DNA from: an uncultured Desulfobacteraceae bacterium
Lineage (GTDB): Bacteria > Desulfobacterota > Desulfobacteria > Desulfobacterales > Desulfatirhabdiaceae
NCBI GenBank assembly: GCA_903909505.1
Contig: CAIVVZ010000022.1
Span: 4,908 to 68,907 of the forward strand
Direction of reading: 5' to 3'
Length of the DNA stretch: 64,000 bases
Below are positions 8,098 through 17,387 of the stretch, one piece after another. The notes under the pieces are model-generated. The model was not told the DNA's origin. It ran no database searches and was given only the letters and a program-made list of their open reading frames with translations. Both the position numbers and the translations under genes were made by a program. Each line of letters begins with the position of its first letter. The stretch's first letter is position 1.

Positions 8098-9246
8098 TTA
8101 TACGATTCCGTTTTTCTGAAACGCGGTAATATCGTCTTCAGCATACCCGATTTCCCGCAAAATGGAAACCGTGCTTTCTCCAAAACCGACGGCCGGTGTG
8201 CGCACTTTGCCCGGTGTTTGGCTTAGCTTGACGGAAACGCCAAAAACCGGTGTCGTTTTCCCTTCTTTTCCCTCAAGGTCAACAACCATCTCCCTTTCCC
8301 GGAACAGGGGGTCTTTCAGCACTTCGTTCAGGTGCTGAACCTTACCCCAGCAGATATCCAGATCCCCGAGGTCGCTGTCCCACTGGCTAAGGGTTTTCCG
8401 GCGAAAAACAGCGCGCAGGGTGTCGATGATTTCCATCCGCATGCCATCGTCATACTGCAGGTCGATGTATTCCGGAAATTCCAGATGCTCGCAAAGCTTT
8501 TTCCAGAAGCGGTGTTCAACGGCGCCGATGGATAAAAATCGGCCGTCTGCGGTTTCGTAGGTATTGTAACAGGCATACCGGTGAGATAGCACGGCATCCG
8601 AGCGCGTGGGGATCTGGCGGGTCAGTTGGTGAAAAAAAAGGGGGATGGAAAGAAACCCCAGCATGCCGTCTGTCATGGAAATATCGATATACTGGCCCTT
8701 TCCGGTCTGATTCCTGGCAACGAGAGCCAGAAGAATGCCGATAACCGCGTTCATCCCGCCGCCGGCTATATCCGCGATCTGAACGCCGGGAATGGCGGGA
8801 GTAGAATCAGCCTGGCCGATTAAATCGAGGATTCCCGCAGCGCTCAGATAATTGACATCGTGGCCGGCCCGATTCACATAAGGGCCTGTCTGGCCATAGC
8901 CGGTTATGGAGCAGTAAATGATGCCCGGATTAACCCTGGAAACCGTCTCATAATCAACACCCAGTCGCTGGACCACACCCGGCCGGAATCCTTCCATCAC
9001 GACATCCGCGGTTTTCACCAGGCGAAAGAAAATCTCCTTTCCCTCGGGAGTCTTTAAATCCAGGGAAAGGTGCTCCTTGTTCCGGTTTACGGTTGTGATG
9101 AAAAAGCCATCCGCGATAAAACGCTTGTCTTCTATGGAAATCACCCGTGCACCATGGTCCGCCAGGATCATCGAACCAAAAGGTCCGGGCAGAAGCCTTG
9201 AGAGATCCAGTACGGTGATTCCGGTCAATGCCCCTTTTTCCAGCAT
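8098..9246 (-). CDS. Family III CoA-transferase (CaiB/BaiF type)
   Basis: GITVLDLSRLLPGPFGSMILADHGARVI N-terminus. The 382-aa length fits the family. Confidence 0.85.
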   Translation of the reverse strand: MLEKGALTGITVLDLSRLLPGPFGSMILADHGARVISIEDKRFIADGFFITTVNRNKEHLSLDLKTPEGKEIFFRLVKTADVVMEGFRPGVVQRLGVDYETVSRVNPGIIYCSITGYGQTGPYVNRAGHDVNYLSAAGILDLIGQADSTPAIPGVQIADIAGGGMNAVIGILLALVARNQTGKGQYIDISMTDGMLGFLSIPLFFHQLTRQIPTRSDAVLSHRYACYNTYETADGRFLSIGAVEHRFWKKLCEHLEFPEYIDLQYDDGMRMEIIDTLRAVFRRKTLSQWDSDLGDLDICWGKVQHLNEVLKDPLFREREMVVDLEGKEGKTTPVFGVSVKLSQTPGKVRTPAVGFGESTVSILREIGYAEDDITAFQKNGIV

Positions 9247-9260
9247 AAGTCCTCCGGTCG

Positions 9261-10067
9261 TTAATTTCCCCTGAAAACAGGGGCTCGTTTTTCCATGAAT
9301 GCGGTTACCGCTTCGATCAAATCATCGGAAGGAAGGGATGCCGCGTTTTTCTGGGCCACATACCGCAGCCCGGAATACACACCGTGATCCCGGTTGTAAA
9401 GCATCACGTCCTTTACGCCCTGAACCGTCAACGGGGCAAGCGCCGCGATTTGCAAGGCCAGCCTGCGGGCCTCATCCATCAGCGCCGAATGGGAATCGCA
9501 CATCCGGGTAATCAACCCCATTTTCAGGGCTTCTTCTGCGATAAAGTCCCGGCCCGTCAGGGCCAGTTCGCCGAACCAGCCTTGTCCGATAATGCGCGGC
9601 AGGCGCTGAAGGGTCCCCAGGTCCGCAATAATGGCAATACGGGTCTCGCGAATGCTGAACAAGGAATCGTTTGAAGCGATGCGGATGTCGCAGGCACTGA
9701 TCAAGTCGATACCGCCGCCGATGCAATGGCCGTGAATGGCCGCGATGACCGGTTTTCTGCACTTTTCGATGGATGAGATGCTGTCCTGCAGACGACCGAT
9801 GGTCTGTCTGAGCGCTTCGCGGCCCGCAGCGGAGGTATCGGCCAGCAGTGCCCCGGCTTCCATCAGGTCGAGCCCGGCGGTAAAGCTTTTGCCCTCGGCG
9901 CGGATCACCACCACCCGGACTTCCGGATTCTGGTCAAGTTCGCGGCAATGGGCCTGAAGCGCAGAAAAAAAATCCATCCCCATGCTGTTTCGCTTGTTCG
10001 GTCGGTTCAGAATCAACCAGGCAATGGGGCCTTCATATTCAACCTTGAATGGATCGGCTGTATCCAT
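9261..10067 (-). CDS. Enoyl-CoA hydratase/isomerase (crotonase) family protein
   Basis: FTAGLDL and AAIHGHCIGGGIDL oxyanion-hole motifs. Confidence 0.85.
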   Translation of the reverse strand: MDTADPFKVEYEGPIAWLILNRPNKRNSMGMDFFSALQAHCRELDQNPEVRVVVIRAEGKSFTAGLDLMEAGALLADTSAAGREALRQTIGRLQDSISSIEKCRKPVIAAIHGHCIGGGIDLISACDIRIASNDSLFSIRETRIAIIADLGTLQRLPRIIGQGWFGELALTGRDFIAEEALKMGLITRMCDSHSALMDEARRLALQIAALAPLTVQGVKDVMLYNRDHGVYSGLRYVAQKNAASLPSDDLIEAVTAFMEKRAPVFRGN

Positions 10068-10081
10068 AATTAGTCTTCCTT

Positions 10082-10657
10082 TCAGGAGAGCATTTCACTC
10101 ATTAAGTCCATGTTCTTTTCCAGCATGGCGCCTTCCATGAGATCGGACATGGCGTTCTTGTAATGATCGAATGCGATGCCGGGGATCAGGTGATTCCGGT
10201 GAATACCGGCCAGAACGGCCATGTTCTGCATGCGGGCATCAATAAGGCCGGGTTTCAAAATGCGGATCACCTGAATATTTCTTTTGTTGCAATAGGCAAA
10301 AATGGTATCGTTATCCACTTCGGGCGCCTGATTCAGACGAACCGGCAAGGGCTGCCAAACGGCATCGTAATAAATGGCGGTGCCGCCGTCTTTGAGAAAG
10401 GCGGTTATTCCCCGGAAGGCCTCGTGCCGCTCCAGTGCCACAACCAGATCGGCTTCGCCCTGCCGGATCAGGGGAGAGTAAACGTTGTTTCCGATGCGGA
10501 TCTGGGATACCACGATACCGCCGCGCTGCGCAAGGCCGTGCGTATCCACTCCTTTAACCGGAAAACCGGCATGGTCGGCTGCCCGGAGCAATATTTCGCT
10601 CAGAAGGCCGATTCCCTGCCCGCCGACGCCTGTCAGATAGATATTGAATGGTTTCAC
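10082..10657 (-). CDS. Stand-alone 2-oxoacid:ferredoxin oxidoreductase gamma-domain protein (IorB/POR-gamma-like)
   Basis: NIYLTGVGGQGIGLLSEIL ... GVDTHGLAQRGG is typical of the POR gamma / IorB domain. No alpha or beta partner is present in the window. Confidence 0.7.
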   Translation of the reverse strand: MKPFNIYLTGVGGQGIGLLSEILLRAADHAGFPVKGVDTHGLAQRGGIVVSQIRIGNNVYSPLIRQGEADLVVALERHEAFRGITAFLKDGGTAIYYDAVWQPLPVRLNQAPEVDNDTIFAYCNKRNIQVIRILKPGLIDARMQNMAVLAGIHRNHLIPGIAFDHYKNAMSDLMEGAMLEKNMDLMSEMLS

Positions 10658-11657: not shown

Positions 11658-11730
11658 GTGAGTTCCTCCCTTACCGGTTTTCCCACTTTGGTTCATTTCA
11701 ATCTGGTTCCAGCTATCTTTACTGCTGCGG

Positions 11731-11759
11731 ATCTTATTACAGGAAGCGCATAATGGCAA
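11731..11759 (-). promoter_or_regulatory. Candidate sigma70-type promoter of the Cdh-like gene; part of the shared 5' motif
   Basis: Read on the minus strand: TTGCCA, 17 nt, TAAGAT. The same architecture and flanks recur upstream of the 16518-17294 gene. Confidence 0.35.
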
Positions 11760-11903
11760 GAAACCGCTTAGACCTTGATCATTTTTTTACAGCGGGACAA
11801 GGCGGTGGACCCAATAAACAATGCAGCCAATTTGCAAAAAATGTTTAGGTGTGATGGCTTCGTAAAAAGCCCAATATCTGCGCTATCTCTGCCCCCTTTT
11901 TGA

Positions 11904-11932
11904 TTGACATCTTTGAGTTACGAGAGTAAAAG
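11904..11932 (+). promoter_or_regulatory. Candidate sigma70-type promoter for the Nramp-related operon
   Basis: TTGACA (11904-11909), 17-nt spacer, TAAAAG (11927-11932). This would give a leader of about 350 nt. Confidence 0.3.
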
Positions 11933-12218
11933 GCAGCCATTCCATGATAGTGTGGATGCTGGTGATTGAAATGAGATTATGATGTATCATAATTTTCATG
12001 TTTTTTTTCAACCCTTAAAATGAAAGGCGGTGGTTGTCTCTTTGGACAGTCATAGTTGTACCCAAATACTCTTATTTGCCATCCAGCGGTAAACGGCCCT
12101 TCCTTTCAAACGCACGGCTCCCGCTGGGTATACATTAATTATCAGCGGCGAGAATCCTTCCTTGGTTATACGGTGCTCTCCCCATAACTTAAATCGGTCT
12201 GTATTTTTTTCGCAATGC

Positions 12219-12260
12219 GACAGCTTTGCAATATATTTTGAAGCTGTCCCTTTTTGTTTC
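12219..12260 (+). terminator. Terminator/attenuator-like hairpin in the 5' leader of the Nramp-related gene
   Basis: gacagctt-(14 nt)-aagctgtc is a perfect 8-bp stem, followed by cctttttgtttc. It ends 33 nt before the GTG start at 12293 (RBS agaggtg). Confidence 0.5.
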
Positions 12261-12292
12261 ATGCATTACCTGACCGATGAAAGAGGTGTCCC

Positions 12293-13564
12293 GTGTTCAG
12301 TCTTTCAAAATTCTACTATAAATTTCGCCGGGTATGGAAGGCGATCAAGCTCTTTTTTATCCTTTCCGGCCCCGGTATTGTGGTCATGGTTGCCGACAAT
12401 GACGCAGGTGGCATCACCACTTACGCTGCAACTGGCGCCAAGTTTGGATACAGTATGATTTGGTTTCTGGTCTTTCTGGTGCCGGTAGCCTACTATGTTC
12501 AGGAAATGACCGTCCGGCTGGGCGCCATAACGAAACGGGGGCATGGCGAAGCTATATTTGCGGGTTTTGGGGCCTTCTGGGGCTGGTTTTCACTCCTTGA
12601 CCTGCTTGTGGTAAACTGGCTGACACTTGTCACCGAATTCATCGGTATGACATCCGCTCTGCGGATATTCGGGATTTCGCCTCTGATAACCGTTATCGGG
12701 GTTTGCGCACTGATGGGGATCATGGTGCTCAACGGCAGATACTGGACATGGGAAAAAATCGCCCTTGTTTTCTGTGCCGTGAACCTGATCTACATTCCAG
12801 GGGCTTTCATGGTACATCCGTCAGTGCATGACATCATTCATACGGGGTTGATCCCGAACCTGCCGCCCGGAGGCTTCAATAACGAATATTTCTTTTTTTT
12901 GATGGCCAATATAGGCACCACTATTGCGCCCTGGATGCTTTTTTTCCAGCAAAGTGCTGTGGTGGACAAAGGCATGAAGGAAAAGGATATTCCCTGGGGC
13001 AAGCTGGATACTTTTGTCGGGTCTCTGCTGACTGTAGTTGTTGCCATTTTTATCGTCGTTGTTACGGGTACGATCCTCAAAGGCGTCAATATTGACGATG
13101 CTGCCCAGGCCTCCCAGTTGTTGATCAAAACCAACAAATATGCCGGCACCTTCATGGCTATCGGTCTGTTTGACGCCGGCCTGTTGGGCGCTATCTGCAT
13201 CTCGCTTGCCAGCTCTTGGGCTTTTGGCGAAGTGTTTGGATGGGCTCACTCGCTGAATAATAAAATCCGTGAAGCCCCGTGGTTCTATGCCAATTATTTC
13301 CTTTCTCTCTTTACAGCAGGGGCCGTGGTTTTAATTCCCAATGCCCCTCTGGTGCTGATTACTCTTTTTGTACAGGTTATTGCCGTAACGCTGCTGCCCG
13401 CAGCTCTGGTCTTTCTGATATTGCTTCTCAACAATAAAAAGACCATGGGTGAGCACACCAACAACCTCTGGCAAAATATCGTTGCCACATTCATTGTGGT
13501 GGTGATCGTAATTCTCTCCAGTCTTTATGGAATCAGCACGCTGTTTCCCAGTATGTTCAAATAA
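12293..13564 (+). CDS. Nramp/SLC11 family transporter with NRMT-like (Mg2+-type) binding-site substitutions
   Basis: SGPGIVVMVADNDAGGITTYAATGAKFGY aligns to the canonical ...DPGN... of TM1. GTTIAPWMLFFQQS aligns to the canonical GAT(I/V)MPH..LHS of TM6. GTG start. Confidence 0.85.
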   Translation: MFSLSKFYYKFRRVWKAIKLFFILSGPGIVVMVADNDAGGITTYAATGAKFGYSMIWFLVFLVPVAYYVQEMTVRLGAITKRGHGEAIFAGFGAFWGWFSLLDLLVVNWLTLVTEFIGMTSALRIFGISPLITVIGVCALMGIMVLNGRYWTWEKIALVFCAVNLIYIPGAFMVHPSVHDIIHTGLIPNLPPGGFNNEYFFFLMANIGTTIAPWMLFFQQSAVVDKGMKEKDIPWGKLDTFVGSLLTVVVAIFIVVVTGTILKGVNIDDAAQASQLLIKTNKYAGTFMAIGLFDAGLLGAICISLASSWAFGEVFGWAHSLNNKIREAPWFYANYFLSLFTAGAVVLIPNAPLVLITLFVQVIAVTLLPAALVFLILLLNNKKTMGEHTNNLWQNIVATFIVVVIVILSSLYGISTLFPSMFK

Positions 13565-13576
13565 GAAGGAGGCGCC

Positions 13577-13750
13577 ATGCTGAAAGGATTTTTATTGAAT
13601 AATTTTTCCAAGATCCGCGAGATTAACCGTAAATATGCAAAACCCAATGTGGAGATGTCCCGATGGGTCAAGGCGACACTTCTGTTTTTGCGTCTGTATC
13701 TGATTTTTCTGGTAGGCCTGCTGCTCTACAAATTTATGACAATGATCTGA
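13577..13750 (+). CDS. 57-aa single-pass membrane protein, not in the supplied ORF track
   Basis: ATG at 13577 follows aggagg (13567-13572). Translation: MLKGFLLNNFSKIREINRKYAKPNVEMSRWVKATLLFLRLYLIFLVGLLLYKFMTMI. There are 12-13-nt gaps to both neighbours. Confidence 0.55.
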   Translation: MLKGFLLNNFSKIREINRKYAKPNVEMSRWVKATLLFLRLYLIFLVGLLLYKFMTMI

Positions 13751-13763
13751 TGGGAGAATCGCC

Positions 13764-15038
13764 ATGAACAGCATCATTAAAAAAAACTCTGACACGGACT
13801 TGGTATTTTTTCTTAGCGATCTCATTGGGAATCCGGTGCGTTTAAATAATAAAAAGATCGGAAAGCTGGACGATCTGATTATCGTTGAAAATGAAAAACT
13901 GCCTGAAGTGACCAATATAACCATAAGCCGTCCCTTCGGTCATAAATCCCTTATGATTCCCGTCAACCGGGTATCAAGCTTCGGACGGGATGTCATCGTT
14001 GTCGATATTGAATCAATCGAGGGCTATGAAGGAGAGCCGGAAGAAAATCAAGTTCTGTTGAAAGACCATATCCTGGATAAAAAAGTCATTGATCTGGATG
14101 ACAATGATATCGACATTGTATATGACGTGAAACTGCTGCTGCACGGCCGTCGAATGTACGTCACCGATGTGGATTTCAGCAGATATGGTCTGATCAAACG
14201 GATAGGGCTGAGCTATGTTGCCGAATTCATCTATCATCTGGCCGAAGTGTTTAAGAAGGAAACTATCTCCTGGCGCTATGTCCAGCGGCTTCCGGAAAAA
14301 ATTGGTAGCTTCAAGGGCAACGTAAAGCTGAAGATCCTCAAAGAAACATTGCCGGAAATCCATCCCGTGGATATGGCAGATATTCTGGAAGAGCTTCCGG
14401 AAGAACAGCGGATAGCCATCTTCAACGAACTTGAAACCGAGCATGCCTCTGATACTCTGGAAGAAATCGAGCCCCGGGTTCAGCGCGCCATTATTTCATC
14501 CCTGACAAAGGAACGTAATGCCGAACTGGTAGGAGACATGACTCCGGCTCAGGCTGCGGATGTTCTGTCAATACTGCCAACGCCCTATGCGGAAGAAATT
14601 CTCGATCTCATGAATCCTACAGATGCGGAACAGATCGAGACCATTCTGGAAAAACAGGATCACACCATCAGCGATCTGGTCACCAGCCACTACATTTGCC
14701 TGACGCCAGAAATCCCTGCAGCAGTGGTGGTTGCCGATTTTCGCCGTCTGGCAGCGGACGCCCATGTGGTGGACTACCTTTATGTGACAGACCCAGACAA
14801 CCGGCTGATGGGGGTTGTCAGCCTAGCTGAACTGCTCATGGCTGAACCCAGAACCCCACTTTCCGATATCATGAGTACCCAGGTTATCAGTTTGGATACA
14901 GGCGATTCCATCAGTGATGCCGAAGAAAAATTTACCCGCTATTCGTTTTCTGCATTGCCGGTGACCAATACTGACGATATCCTCTATGGCGTGGTGCCAT
15001 TCCGCGATATCATGAATCTGGAGCACAAATTTGCTTAA
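13764..15038 (+). CDS. Soluble PRC-barrel + MgtE N-domain + CBS-pair protein (MgtE cytoplasmic sensor module without the channel domain)
   Basis: PRC-like N-terminus (LIGNPVRLNNKKIGKLDDLIIVEN). MgtE_N region (HPVDMADILEELPEEQRIAIFNELETEHASDTLEEI ... AADVLSILP). Two CBS motifs follow. No hydrophobic C-terminal segment. Confidence 0.85.
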   Translation: MNSIIKKNSDTDLVFFLSDLIGNPVRLNNKKIGKLDDLIIVENEKLPEVTNITISRPFGHKSLMIPVNRVSSFGRDVIVVDIESIEGYEGEPEENQVLLKDHILDKKVIDLDDNDIDIVYDVKLLLHGRRMYVTDVDFSRYGLIKRIGLSYVAEFIYHLAEVFKKETISWRYVQRLPEKIGSFKGNVKLKILKETLPEIHPVDMADILEELPEEQRIAIFNELETEHASDTLEEIEPRVQRAIISSLTKERNAELVGDMTPAQAADVLSILPTPYAEEILDLMNPTDAEQIETILEKQDHTISDLVTSHYICLTPEIPAAVVVADFRRLAADAHVVDYLYVTDPDNRLMGVVSLAELLMAEPRTPLSDIMSTQVISLDTGDSISDAEEKFTRYSFSALPVTNTDDILYGVVPFRDIMNLEHKFA

Positions 15039-15153
15039 TTGATCCAGATGCCTAACCACTGGTCATAGCGCCCCGTTTTTGAGATGAAAAAAATATAGAT
15101 TAAAGTTTTCAAGCAGGTCTTTATCGACCGCTTAATAAGCCCAGTTTTTGATT

Positions 15154-15645
15154 TCATTGTCTGGATGGTGAGAACCCAATGGTGTACTCGCCGGGCACCA
15201 CGCCATCATAAGCAAAGGAAATTGTCAGGGCTCCTTCAGGTATAGGTATTGTCCTTTCAAATTCCATGGGAAGCGGAATAGAGCCATCATAATCTCCTGC
15301 ATGAATAAGGACGTTTTCAATAACAATTCCCTGATTGTCCAGAAATAACAGGTATACTGCAAGGCGATGAACAATGTTTGGTCCTATGGCGAATCCACCA
15401 ACCAGTTCGTTGGTTCCAGCAATCTTCAAAGTATCCAGCGTCATCTGGTATTGATATTTTATCGCAAGTTCATTGGTTTTCCATACCCCTTGCTGATTCC
15501 CATCTTTAAGCTGGACCATGAAATCGTTTTGGGTTACCTTGTATCCTTTATAGGTGAACAGCCTCCCCCCGCAGCTGGCAACGGTGAAGGCTGCGATCAT
15601 CAAGATAAACGTTGTTTTTACGAATCGGTTATCTTTAAAATGCAT
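15154..15645 (-). CDS. Hypothetical lipoprotein
   Basis: MHFKDNRFVKTTFILMIAAFTVASCGG contains a lipobox (VASC). The start is taken at the internal Met of the track ORF. Confidence 0.55.
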   Translation of the reverse strand: MHFKDNRFVKTTFILMIAAFTVASCGGRLFTYKGYKVTQNDFMVQLKDGNQQGVWKTNELAIKYQYQMTLDTLKIAGTNELVGGFAIGPNIVHRLAVYLLFLDNQGIVIENVLIHAGDYDGSIPLPMEFERTIPIPEGALTISFAYDGVVPGEYTIGFSPSRQ

Positions 15646-15687
15646 CGGATACACCCCCGTAACTAAAAAGTTGATTTGCAACACCAC

Positions 15688-16517: not shown

Positions 16518-17294
16518 TCACCGATTTTTCCACACGGGTGTTTTCTTTTCGATAAACGCCGCAATGCCGTTCTGGGCGTCTTCGGACGTCAGATTCATGA
16601 CAATGGTATGTTTGGCATAATTCATGGCGGGGTCATCCGGCTGATCAATCTGGGCGTAAAAACCCTGCTTGCCGATGGATAGCACAAAGCGGCTGGCTTC
16701 GGTGATCTGAATGGCCAGCTTTTTTGTTTCTCCGGGCAAATCTTCAAGGGGCACGACGCGGTTAATCAGGCCCAGTTCCCTGGCTTCCGATGCCGGAAAA
16801 AACCGGCCGGTAAGCAGCATTTCCATGGCAGCCTTGCGTCCGATGGCTCGGGTGATCGCCACCATGGGAGTTGTGCAGAACAGTCCGATCTTGACGCCGG
16901 GCGTGGCAAACCTGGCTCCTTCCTCTGCCACAGCCAGGTCACACCAGGCCACCAGCTGACAACCGGCCGCGGTGGCAACCCCCTGAACCTGGGCAATGAC
17001 CGGCTGGGGGATAGTGTGGATCAGCTGCATCATCTGCGTGCACTGGTCGAAAATAAACTTGTATTCTTTTACGCCCTGTTCCCGCATCTCGGACAGGTCG
17101 TGCCCTGCGCAGAAATGTTTCCCAGTCGCCCGGATGACGATGACCTTGATCGATTCATCCACTGACACGGCTGTCAGCAAATAGATCATTTCGCCGATCA
17201 TTTTTTTAGACAACGCATTAAATTTTGACGGATTGTTCAATGTCAGATAGCCGACAGGCCCTTCCGCGGAAAAAAGTAACTCTTCATAATCCAT
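16518..17294 (-). CDS. Enoyl-CoA hydratase/isomerase family protein
   Basis: FCAGHDL and AQVQGVATAAGCQLVA motifs. The start is chosen at MDYEEL behind the RBS caaggaggattttctATG. Confidence 0.85.
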   Translation of the reverse strand: MDYEELLFSAEGPVGYLTLNNPSKFNALSKKMIGEMIYLLTAVSVDESIKVIVIRATGKHFCAGHDLSEMREQGVKEYKFIFDQCTQMMQLIHTIPQPVIAQVQGVATAAGCQLVAWCDLAVAEEGARFATPGVKIGLFCTTPMVAITRAIGRKAAMEMLLTGRFFPASEARELGLINRVVPLEDLPGETKKLAIQITEASRFVLSIGKQGFYAQIDQPDDPAMNYAKHTIVMNLTSEDAQNGIAAFIEKKTPVWKNR

Positions 17295-17387
17295 AGAAAA
17301 TCCTCCTTGATATTTCCGACATTTCAGTTTTATCAAGCCTCTTGATCCGATTCCAGCAACCTTTTTCAATTCAATTCAATTCATATC

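What the first reader, a model, noticed from the sequence alone, without database searches (positions are those of the whole stretch)
12293..15038. Nramp-related transporter with a Mg2+-type (NRMT-like) site, a mini membrane ORF and a pore-less MgtE sensor protein in one operon
Seen in the sequence:
- The 423-aa SLC11/Nramp ORF reads VADNDAGG where Mn/Fe Nramps have the TM1 DPGN motif.
- It reads GTTIAPW where they have G-A-T-x-M-P-H in TM6. The changes are Asn to Gly, Ala to Thr and Met to Ala.
- Twelve nt downstream sits an RBS-preceded 57-codon single-TM ORF.
- Thirteen nt further on is a 424-aa soluble protein made of a PRC barrel, an MgtE N-domain and a CBS pair. That is the Mg2+-sensing cytoplasmic module of the MgtE channel, with no transmembrane pore.

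Established, from my memory of the NRMT work on Clostridium acetobutylicum NrmT and the Eggerthella lenta EleNRMT structure: loss of the soft Met ligand and the Asn-to-Gly change mark the Mg2+-transporting Nramp-related clade.

Inference: this is a three-gene Mg2+ uptake unit in which an MgtE-type sensor regulates a non-MgtE transporter in trans. I am not aware of this pairing having been described.
Basis: partly seen in the sequence, partly recalled or inferred. Interest (0 to 1): 0.75.

Follow-up and report, generated by a model that had tools for sequence, protein, structure and literature searches.

The report
Magnesium transporter operon with sensor and mini-subunit
This is a three-gene operon for an Nramp-related magnesium transporter, a tiny membrane protein and a pore-less MgtE-type sensor; the transporter-sensor pairing was already reported in 2014, but the tiny protein looks like an undescribed, strictly conserved third component.

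Summary

The transporter belongs to the NRMT clade. It has the DxxG/TxxA site signature. It scores 220 bits to EleNRMT, against 53 bits or less to canonical Nramps.

The novelty claim fails. Shin et al. 2014 (PLoS Genet, PMC4072509) reported that most nrmT genes sit next to a gene for the MgtE cytoplasmic domain. They also speculated that it gives feedback regulation. Its function is still unresolved.

What I add:
- The trio is conserved in about 100 loci from four bacterial phyla and methanogenic archaea.
- The 57-aa ORF is a real gene (dN/dS about 0.08) with no known family.
- It changes position: NRMT-mini-sensor or NRMT-sensor-mini.
- In some metagenomic proteins it is fused to the NRMT C-terminus.
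- In Eggerthellaceae it is absent, and there the sensor carries its own C-terminal TM helix.
- M-box Mg2+ riboswitches precede the operon in 9 related loci but not in this window.

Most likely this is a Mg2+(/Mn2+) uniporter complex gated by cytosolic Mg2+. It is a variant of a known kind, of moderate interest.

The parts
11760..12292 (+). Leader / promoter region of the operon; no Mg2+ riboswitch
   Evidence: It lies between a divergent CDH-like gene on the minus strand and the NRMT start. Rfam gave no hit at gathering thresholds. No M-box appeared even at E <= 10. Promoter-like hexamers are not more frequent than in shuffled sequence.
12280..12286 (+). Shine-Dalgarno-like AAAGAGG before the GTG start of the transporter gene
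   Evidence: Read directly from the sequence. The N-terminus MF..YY.FRRVWKAIKL aligns with orthologues that start with ATG at the same position.
12293..13564 (+). NRMT-clade (Nramp-related Mg2+ transporter) gene, 423 aa. Site residues D37, G40, T209, A212; also W214, Q219, E115, Q361
   Evidence: Pfam Nramp E = 4e-73. It scores below the cut-offs of the NCBIfam MntH/Nramp models. EleNRMT 7qia is the best solved relative at E = 6.8e-64, against 2.5e-13 for the next chain. It is 69-97% identical to orthologues in 30 genome loci.
13565..13572 (+). Shine-Dalgarno GAAGGAGG for the mini ORF
   Evidence: Read from the sequence. Comparable purine-rich sites precede the orthologous mini ORFs.
13577..13750 (+). 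57-aa single-TM protein: basic cytoplasmic N-terminal segment with the motif EINRKYxxP..M, then the TM helix LLFLRLYLIFLV
   Evidence: Conserved in all informative loci. dN/dS is about 0.08. It has 12 invariant positions across bacteria and archaea. It has no Pfam, NCBIfam or PDB relative. Natural fusions to the NRMT C-terminus exist.
13752..13757 (+). Shine-Dalgarno-like GGGAGA for the sensor gene
   Evidence: Read from the sequence.
13764..15038 (+). Soluble, acidic 424-aa protein: PRC barrel + second beta domain + MgtE_N + CBS pair. It has no pore domain and no plug helix
   Evidence: Pfam. NCBIfam mgtE model positions 18-250 of 450 only, 133 bits against a cut-off of 233. PDB MgtE cytosolic domains, E = 1e-27. 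AF2 model with pLDDT 75.5, whose Foldseek top hits are MgtE cytosolic domains at E = 3.5e-19. No TM segment.
13803..14009 (+). PRC-barrel domain (residues 14-82)
   Evidence: Pfam PF05239, E = 1.3e-07. This is a beta-strand region with pLDDT 76-91 in the model.
14358..14651 (+). MgtE_N helical domain (residues 199-296). It holds D230 and D266, which correspond to T. thermophilus MgtE E59 and D95
   Evidence: Pfam PF03448, E = 3.6e-24.
14676..15023 (+). CBS pair (residues about 305-420). It holds Y338, E356, F395 and D415, which correspond to TtMgtE Y170, D188, F227 and D247
   Evidence: Pfam PF00571, two stretches.

Best explanation
The three genes form one operon for a Mg2+ uptake complex.

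- Transporter. The 423-aa protein is an NRMT-type LeuT-fold carrier. By analogy with EleNRMT, it moves largely hydrated Mg2+ (and also Mn2+) into the cell without proton coupling.
- Sensor. The 424-aa protein is the cytoplasmic gating module of the MgtE channel, detached from any pore and extended at its N-terminus by a PRC barrel. It most likely binds cytosolic Mg2+, and possibly an adenine nucleotide, and then inhibits the carrier when Mg2+ is sufficient.
- Mini protein. The 57-aa protein is a membrane subunit of the transporter. I propose that its conserved cytoplasmic N-terminal segment is where the soluble sensor docks.

Shown: the identity of the three parts, the strict conservation of the trio, that the mini ORF codes for protein, its fusion to NRMT in some sequences, and Mg2+ riboswitches on orthologous operons.

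Inferred: Mg2+ as the main substrate, physical association of the three proteins, and the direction of regulation.
For: Transporter:
- It has the NRMT site signature DxxG-TxxA, at D37..G40 and T209..A212.
- The two TM6b histidines used for proton coupling are replaced by W214 and Q219.
- E115 and Q361, corresponding to EleNRMT E133 and Q379, are kept.
- It scores 220 bits to EleNRMT, against 53 bits or less to canonical Nramps.

Link to Mg2+:
- M-box riboswitches (RF00380, 119-147 bits) lie upstream on the same strand in related loci L008-L014, L097 and L114.
- In L009 no long ORF lies between the M-box and the NRMT gene.
- The archaeal trios sit next to corA.

Conservation of the trio:
- 29 of 29 genome loci found with the sensor carry all three genes.
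- Across all 117 loci, 70 show the full NRMT-mini-sensor order and 24 more are truncated but still have the mini ORF. Only one locus (L099) has the NRMT gene alone.

Mini protein:
- dN/dS is about 0.08.
- The core motif is invariant.
- Gene order is shuffled to NRMT-sensor-mini in L107, L111-L114 and L116.
- NRMT-mini fusion proteins exist: P0490 and P0499.
- In Eggerthellaceae loci without a mini gene, the sensor has its own C-terminal TM helix.

Sensor:
- Three of six TtMgtE cytosolic acidic Mg2+ ligands are invariant in the family: D230, D266 and D415.
- The ATP-contacting Y338 and F395 are also invariant. The residue lists come from PMC5882242 and PMC5529423.

Shin et al. 2014 proposed the same feedback role.
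Against: - No experiment links the sensor to transport. Shin et al. 2014 found that C. acetobutylicum NrmT transports Mg2+ without the MgtE-like fragment. Co-expressing the A. capsulatum fragment changed nothing, and that transporter behaved mainly as a Mn2+ importer.
- EleNRMT is active alone in liposomes.
- Three of the six mapped Mg2+ ligands are lost (D91 to A, D226 to S, D250 to N). The plug-helix sites E258/D259 have no counterpart, because the protein ends there.
- This window has no M-box.
- I found no covariation between the invariant TM arginine of the mini protein and the trio-specific D294 of NRMT.
- The similarity between the mini TM and the Eggerthellaceae sensor tail is only 7 bits.
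- The fusions are metagenomic fragments.
- No multimer structure prediction was available.
Confidence: 0.55

Rival explanations
1. The carrier is chiefly a Mn2+ (transition-metal) importer. The MgtE-like protein then senses Mn2+ or something else, so the operon is not a Mg2+ system.
For: Shin et al. 2014 found that the A. capsulatum NrmT-group protein, which also has an adjacent MgtE-like gene and no riboswitch, fully rescued a Mn2+ transport defect. It rescued Mg2+ only at millimolar levels. EleNRMT also transports Mn2+. This window lacks an M-box.
Against: Orthologues 80-87% identical to this transporter in Geobacter and Oryzomonas follow M-box Mg2+ riboswitches. Archaeal trios neighbour corA. 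The site is identical to that of EleNRMT, including T209, whose equivalent T224 is needed for Mg2+ but much less so for Mn2+.
Confidence: 0.2
2. The sensor protein does not gate the carrier. Instead it acts as a Mg2+ buffer or chaperone, or as an assembly or stability factor for the transporter. The mini protein would then be a stabilising subunit, comparable in role to MgtS for MgtA.
For: Shin et al. list a metal-chaperone role as an alternative. Transport does not need the fragment. Half of the MgtE Mg2+ ligands and the plug helix, which executes gating in MgtE, are missing.
Against: The MgtE_N-CBS interface ligands that are retained (equivalents of E59, D95 and D247) are invariant across 46 family members. 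That argues for a conserved Mg2+-dependent domain closure rather than simple buffering. Membrane tethering, either in cis (Eggerthellaceae) or through the mini gene, suggests action at the carrier.
Confidence: 0.2
3. The 57-codon ORF is not a functional protein. It would be a chance ORF, or a leader or coupling element for translation of the sensor gene.
For: It is short. It has no family match. Sources that name it call it a hypothetical protein.
Against: dN/dS is about 0.08, with 55 of 56 third codon positions variable against 25 of 56 second positions. Twelve residues are invariant from Desulfobacterota to Methanomicrobiales. It keeps its own RBS. It moves to a different position in the operon. 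It occurs fused to NRMT.
Confidence: 0.02

Closest known systems
NrmT / NRMT operons with an adjacent MgtE-cytoplasmic-domain gene (Shin et al. 2014, PLoS Genet, PMC4072509; C. acetobutylicum Ca_c0685/Ca_c3329, A. capsulatum ACP_2976/2977)
   Same: An Nramp-related carrier gene is co-transcribed with a gene for the MgtE N-terminal cytoplasmic module. M-box riboswitches occur on many members, including orthologues of this locus. The speculated role is the same: feedback regulation.
   Different: Here the sensor gene lies downstream rather than upstream, and a conserved 57-aa TM gene lies between the two. This copy has no riboswitch. The text of that paper mentions only one common additional gene.
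EleNRMT from Eggerthella lenta (Ramanadane et al. 2022, eLife, PMC8806188; PDB 7QIA)
   Same: Same fold and the same ion-site residues (D, G, T, A). The TM6b His is replaced by Trp. The conserved Glu (TM3) and Gln (TM10) are present. In close relatives of EleNRMT (Paraeggerthella, Adlercreutzia) the gene is also paired with a PRC-MgtE_N-CBS gene.
   Different: Only 35% identical. In the Eggerthellaceae loci the sensor is upstream and carries its own C-terminal TM helix, and there is no mini gene. The trio-type carriers have extra conserved charged residues, for example D294 and H319.
MgtE Mg2+ channel (T. thermophilus; PDB 2YVX/2YVY)
   Same: It has the MgtE_N + CBS-pair cytosolic module (E = 1e-27 by sequence, 3.5e-19 by fold). 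The protein is acidic. Counterparts of E59, D95 and D247 and of the ATP-contacting Y170 and F227 are invariant.
   Different: It has no plug helix and no five-helix pore domain. The counterparts of D91, D226 and D250 are lost. It has an added N-terminal PRC barrel and a second beta domain. Whatever it regulates is encoded by a separate gene of an unrelated fold.
Small membrane proteins that modulate Mg2+/Mn2+ transporters (MgtS, MgtR, MntS in enterobacteria; from my own knowledge)
   Same: It is a very small protein, here with a single TM helix like MgtS and MgtR, encoded with or near a metal-transport system. It presumably acts by direct binding.
   Different: There is no sequence relationship: the Pfam, NCBIfam and PDB searches were empty. 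It has a distinct conserved motif (EINRKYxxP...LLFLRLYL) and a far wider phylogenetic spread, including archaea.

Membership tests
NRMT clade of the SLC11/Nramp superfamily | Nramp (PF01566) LeuT-type fold | tested here: met
   Pfam Nramp E = 4e-73, covering profile positions 1-356 of 357.
NRMT clade of the SLC11/Nramp superfamily | DxxG motif in the unwound part of helix 1, in place of DxxN (Ramanadane 2022) | tested here: met
   D37-A-G-G40 aligns with EleNRMT D55..G58.
NRMT clade of the SLC11/Nramp superfamily | TxxA/T motif in helix 6, in place of A/CxxM | tested here: met
   T209-T-I-A212 aligns with EleNRMT T224..A227.
NRMT clade of the SLC11/Nramp superfamily | Loss of the proton-pathway histidines on helix 6b | tested here: met
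   W214 and Q219 stand at the positions of EleNRMT W229 and N234.
NRMT clade of the SLC11/Nramp superfamily | Closer to characterised NRMT than to MntH/Nramp clades | tested here: met
   220 bits to 7qia, against 53 bits or less to all other Nramp chains. It scores below the cut-offs of all NCBIfam MntH/Nramp models. I did not build a full phylogeny.
NRMT clade of the SLC11/Nramp superfamily | Uncoupled Mg2+ transport | not testable with these tools
   This needs liposome or complementation assays.
M-box-regulated nrmT operons (Shin 2014) | M-box (RF00380) riboswitch in the leader | tested here: not met
   No hit in the window at gathering thresholds or at E <= 10. It is present in orthologous loci L008-L014, L097 and L114.
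nrmT + MgtE-fragment gene pair (Shin 2014) | A gene for an MgtE cytoplasmic-domain homologue next to nrmT on the same strand | tested here: met
   The sensor gene starts 200 nt after the NRMT stop on the same strand. The pairing is conserved in about 100 loci.
MgtE channel | MgtE_N domain followed by a CBS pair | tested here: met
MgtE channel | C-terminal five-helix pore domain and plug helix | tested here: not met
   The protein ends 5 residues after the point aligned to TtMgtE residue 251. It has no hydrophobic segment. It reaches only 133 bits on the NCBIfam mgtE model, whose cut-off is 233.
MgtE channel | Acidic Mg2+ ligands of the cytosolic sites Mg4-Mg7 | tested here: inconclusive
   The equivalents of E59, D95 and D247 are invariant. 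The equivalents of D91, D226 and D250 are replaced.
MgtE channel | ATP pocket in the CBS pair (Y170, R187, D188, N203, F227) | tested here: inconclusive
   Y338 and F395 are invariant, and E356 is a conservative change. The R187 and N203 positions are not kept.
Known small regulators of Mg2+/Mn2+ transport (MgtS, MgtR, MntS) | Sequence membership in a described family | tested here: not met
   The mini ORF and 32 of its relatives have no Pfam or NCBIfam hit. A profile search of the PDB gave nothing below E = 0.1.

The most novel reading that the evidence does not exclude
The 57-aa protein is an obligatory third subunit. Its TM helix packs against the NRMT carrier, and its conserved cytoplasmic EINRKYxxP segment recruits the PRC-MgtE_N-CBS protein. 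The Mg2+-dependent clamp of the MgtE channel would thus have been transplanted, through a small adaptor, onto an unrelated LeuT-fold carrier. In Eggerthellaceae the same arrangement would be achieved by fusing a TM helix to the sensor. That would give a defined mechanism for the MgtE-like fragment, whose role has been open since 2014.
Probability: 0.35. Interest if true: 0.6.

Novelty: new variant of a known kind. Interest (0 to 1): 0.4.

Why it matters
NRMTs are the fourth class of prokaryotic Mg2+ importers. How their activity is matched to cytosolic Mg2+ is unknown.

The adjacent MgtE-like gene was noticed in 2014 but has no assigned role, and structural work on EleNRMT did not address it.

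This analysis gives a concrete, testable model of a gated carrier complex. It rests on three points:
- A large NRMT subclade always carries a third, tiny membrane protein.
- That protein is sometimes fused to the carrier.
- Where it is absent, the sensor has its own membrane helix.

The model also gives structural biologists a defined three-protein target.

For genome annotation, these transporters are routinely labelled as Mn2+/Fe2+ Nramp transporters, and the mini gene as a hypothetical protein or not called at all.

Tried and rejected
- M-box or any other Rfam element in the window leader: none, even at E <= 10.
- Promoter and terminator consensus scan of 11700-15300: counts no higher than in shuffled sequence, so uninformative.
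- Homology of the mini protein to anything known: Pfam, NCBIfam and a PDB profile search were all empty. The only PDB hits are TM helices of SK potassium channels at E about 0.1, which I take as compositional.
- Mini protein as a split-off twelfth helix of the carrier: rejected. Its basic N-terminal segment predicts an N-in orientation, opposite to a helix directly following TM11. The shared reading frame with NRMT is not conserved (L003).
- Charge-pair covariation between mini R39 and the trio-specific NRMT D294: none seen. There are 96 D/R pairs and 6 N/R pairs, and L113 has G with D.
- Homology between the mini TM and the C-terminal TM tail of the Eggerthellaceae sensors: only 7 bits, so I treat it as an analogy.
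- Pfam assignment of the second beta domain of the sensor (residues about 95-195): no hit at E <= 10.
- A pseudo-fusion AlphaFold run of NRMT + mini: considered and not run. A short linker would force the wrong topology, and only single chains can be modelled here.
The metagenome scan returned only the trio-type subclade.
Full report
**1. The observation**

- 12293-13564: 423 aa, GTG start
- 13577-13750: 57 aa
- 13764-15038: 424 aa

The gaps between them are 12 nt and 13 nt. Each start follows a purine-rich ribosome-binding site. Both flanking genes are on the minus strand: a CDH-like gene ending at 11759 and an unassigned ORF at 15154-15687, followed by a VTT/DedA gene. The trio is therefore a self-contained transcription unit.

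Domain and composition checks:
- Pfam assigns ORF1 to Nramp (E = 4e-73).
- Pfam assigns ORF3 to PRC + MgtE_N + two CBS domains. ORF2 matches nothing.
- NCBIfam scores ORF1 far below the MntH/Nramp cut-offs.
- NCBIfam matches ORF3 only to positions 18-250 of the 450-position mgtE model.
- ORF3 has no hydrophobic segment and is acidic, with 76 D+E against 43 K+R.
- ORF2 has one TM segment after a basic N-terminal region.

**2. The transporter**

The best solved relative is EleNRMT (7qia) at E = 6.8e-64 and 220 bits. Every canonical Nramp chain scores 53 bits or less.

Ramanadane et al. 2022 define NRMTs by a DxxG-TxxA/T ion-site signature. The window protein has D37..G40 and T209..A212. It also has:
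- W214 and Q219 at the positions of the two proton-pathway histidines
- E115 and Q361, the counterparts of EleNRMT E133 and Q379

Overall identity to EleNRMT is only 35%. This is a separate, deep NRMT subclade whose members are 54-97% identical to one another.

**3. The pairing is already published**

Shin et al. [quoted passage not shown] They speculated that it provides cytoplasmic feedback regulation or acts as a metal chaperone.

They also reported two experimental points:
- C. acetobutylicum NrmT works without the fragment.
- Co-expressing the A. capsulatum fragment had no effect, and that transporter behaved mainly as a Mn2+ importer.

I found no later paper on the accessory protein. The function remains open.

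**4. Conservation**

*Genome scan.* I searched one genome per species with the sensor protein and got 31 loci. These come from Desulfobacterota (Desulfobacteraceae, Geobacter, Oryzomonas), Verrucomicrobiota, Nitrospirota and one Rhodopila. All 29 loci with enough flank carry NRMT, then the mini ORF, then the sensor.

*Archaea.* Methanomicrobiales loci have the same trio, next to corA.

*Metagenome scan.* A scan seeded with NRMT motifs added 80 loci. An HMM survey of all 117 loci gave the following:
- 70 complete NRMT-mini-sensor units
- 24 truncated loci that still have the mini ORF
- 1 locus with the sensor inverted (L097)
- 1 locus with the NRMT gene alone (L099)
- a divergent group (L107, L111-L114, L116) in which a shorter mini ORF of 36-48 aa follows the sensor instead

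*Caveat.* Both scans are biased toward this subclade. The genome scan also presupposes the sensor.

**5. The mini protein is a real gene and a likely subunit**

Evidence that it encodes a protein:
- Pairwise Nei-Gojobori analysis gives a median dN/dS of 0.079.
- Third codon positions vary in 55 of 56 codons, against 25 of 56 for second positions.
- Twelve positions are invariant from bacteria to archaea, including the EINxKY motif and an arginine and a tyrosine inside the TM helix.

It has no Pfam, NCBIfam or PDB relative.

A profile search of 1.84 billion representative proteins found 230 members. Among them are proteins in which the C-terminal part of an NRMT continues through a hydrophobic linker into the mini sequence: P0490, P0499 and perhaps P0500. 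Such fusions argue for physical association with the carrier, although these are metagenomic fragments.

In the Eggerthellaceae, the family of EleNRMT, the arrangement differs:
- The PRC-MgtE_N-CBS gene lies directly upstream of the NRMT gene.
- There is no mini gene.
- The sensor ends in its own TM helix..LFLVLYTMALF.. in Paraeggerthella and ..LLFLTLYTLTL.. in Adlercreutzia.

That tail resembles the mini TM (LLFLRLYLIFL), but the profile score is only 7 bits. I treat this as an analogy, not as shown homology. Either way, the sensor appears to need a membrane helix, supplied in cis or in trans.

**6. The sensor**

An AlphaFold2 model built on 46 family members (pLDDT 75.5) shows four parts:
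- a beta domain at residues 13-80, the PRC barrel
- a second beta region at residues 99-175, with no Pfam match
- a helical MgtE_N domain at residues 189-297
- a CBS pair at residues 302-417

Foldseek's top hits are MgtE cytosolic domains (E = 3.5e-19).

I mapped the T. thermophilus MgtE ligands listed in PMC5882242 and PMC5529423 through the HMMER alignment. The result is mixed:
- E59, D95 and D247 correspond to the invariant D230, D266 and D415.
- D91, D226 and D250 are replaced by A, S and N.
- The plug-helix residues E258 and D259 have no counterpart, because the protein ends there.
- ATP-contacting Y170 and F227 correspond to the invariant Y338 and F395. D188 becomes E356. R187 and N203 are not kept.

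Mg2+ sensing and nucleotide binding are therefore plausible but not established.

**7. Link to magnesium**

The window has no M-box. Nine related trio loci do have one upstream on the same strand, at 119-147 bits: L008-L014, L097 and L114.
- In L009 no long ORF separates the riboswitch from the NRMT gene.
- In L097 the gap to the NRMT start is 73 nt.
- In L014, porin-like ORFs lie in between.

Shin et al. argued that the riboswitch is the best marker of Mg2+ specificity within this group. The corA neighbours in archaea point the same way.

**8. Mechanism**

I consider a Mg2+(/Mn2+) uniporter complex most likely. The mini protein would be a membrane subunit. The MgtE-type module would close on Mg2+ and inhibit the carrier.

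My confidence differs by element:

| Element | Confidence |
|---|---|
| Identity of the three parts | about 0.95 |
| Mg2+ as a substrate | about 0.7 |
| Mini protein as a carrier subunit | about 0.6 |
| Sensor-mediated gating | about 0.45 |

In this window, which lacks the riboswitch, control would rest on this post-translational route.

Rivals are a mainly Mn2+ role, a chaperone or stability role for the accessory proteins, and a non-coding mini ORF. The last is effectively excluded.

**9. Verdict**

- The pairing is already known.
- The conserved mini subunit, its mobility within the operon, its fusions, and the membrane-anchored sensor in Eggerthellaceae are details I could not find described.

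This makes the locus a variant of a known kind, of moderate interest.

Noticed in passing
window 21594-51000: A long run of + strand genes with low GC (0.38-0.48) and strongly positive GC skew. It is rich in glycosyltransferases (GT2, GT4), a PIG-L deacetylase fusion and methyltransferase fusions. It looks like a large polysaccharide biosynthesis cluster, possibly acquired horizontally.
   Followed up: partly
L005-L007, L016-L028, L032-L034 compared with window 12293-13564: The NRMT protein is 69-87% identical across Desulfobacterota, Verrucomicrobiota, Nitrospirota and an alphaproteobacterium, and about 70% identical to Methanomicrobiales. The neighbouring sensor is less conserved, at 50-69%. 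This suggests repeated horizontal transfer of the whole operon.
   Followed up: partly
L097 6486-7766: In this one metagenomic locus the sensor gene is on the opposite strand, convergent with NRMT-mini. An M-box sits 73 nt upstream of the NRMT gene. This is either a real inversion or an assembly artefact.
   Followed up: no
L014 1533-3437: Here the M-box is followed by two porin-like ORFs (possibly one frameshifted gene) before the NRMT trio. This hints at an outer-membrane component under the same Mg2+ control.
   Followed up: no
L032 1449-2531; L033 5697-6776; L034 2754-3833: In Methanomicrobiales loci, corA genes lie directly beside the trio. Two different Mg2+ uptake systems are thus clustered together.
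   Followed up: no
protein P0386 (5774 aa, representative library): A giant protein matches positions 15-28 of the mini profile (the EINRKY region) in 18 separate stretches. This is probably an unrelated repeat protein that shares a short basic motif.
   Followed up: no
window 8098-10657 and 16518-17369: A family III CoA-transferase, two enoyl-CoA hydratases and a pyruvate:ferredoxin oxidoreductase gamma-type subunit flank the operon. This fits an anaerobic acyl-CoA-degrading Desulfobacteraceae-like host. The closest genome loci are Desulfobacteraceae and 'Deltaproteobacteria' MAGs.
   Followed up: no
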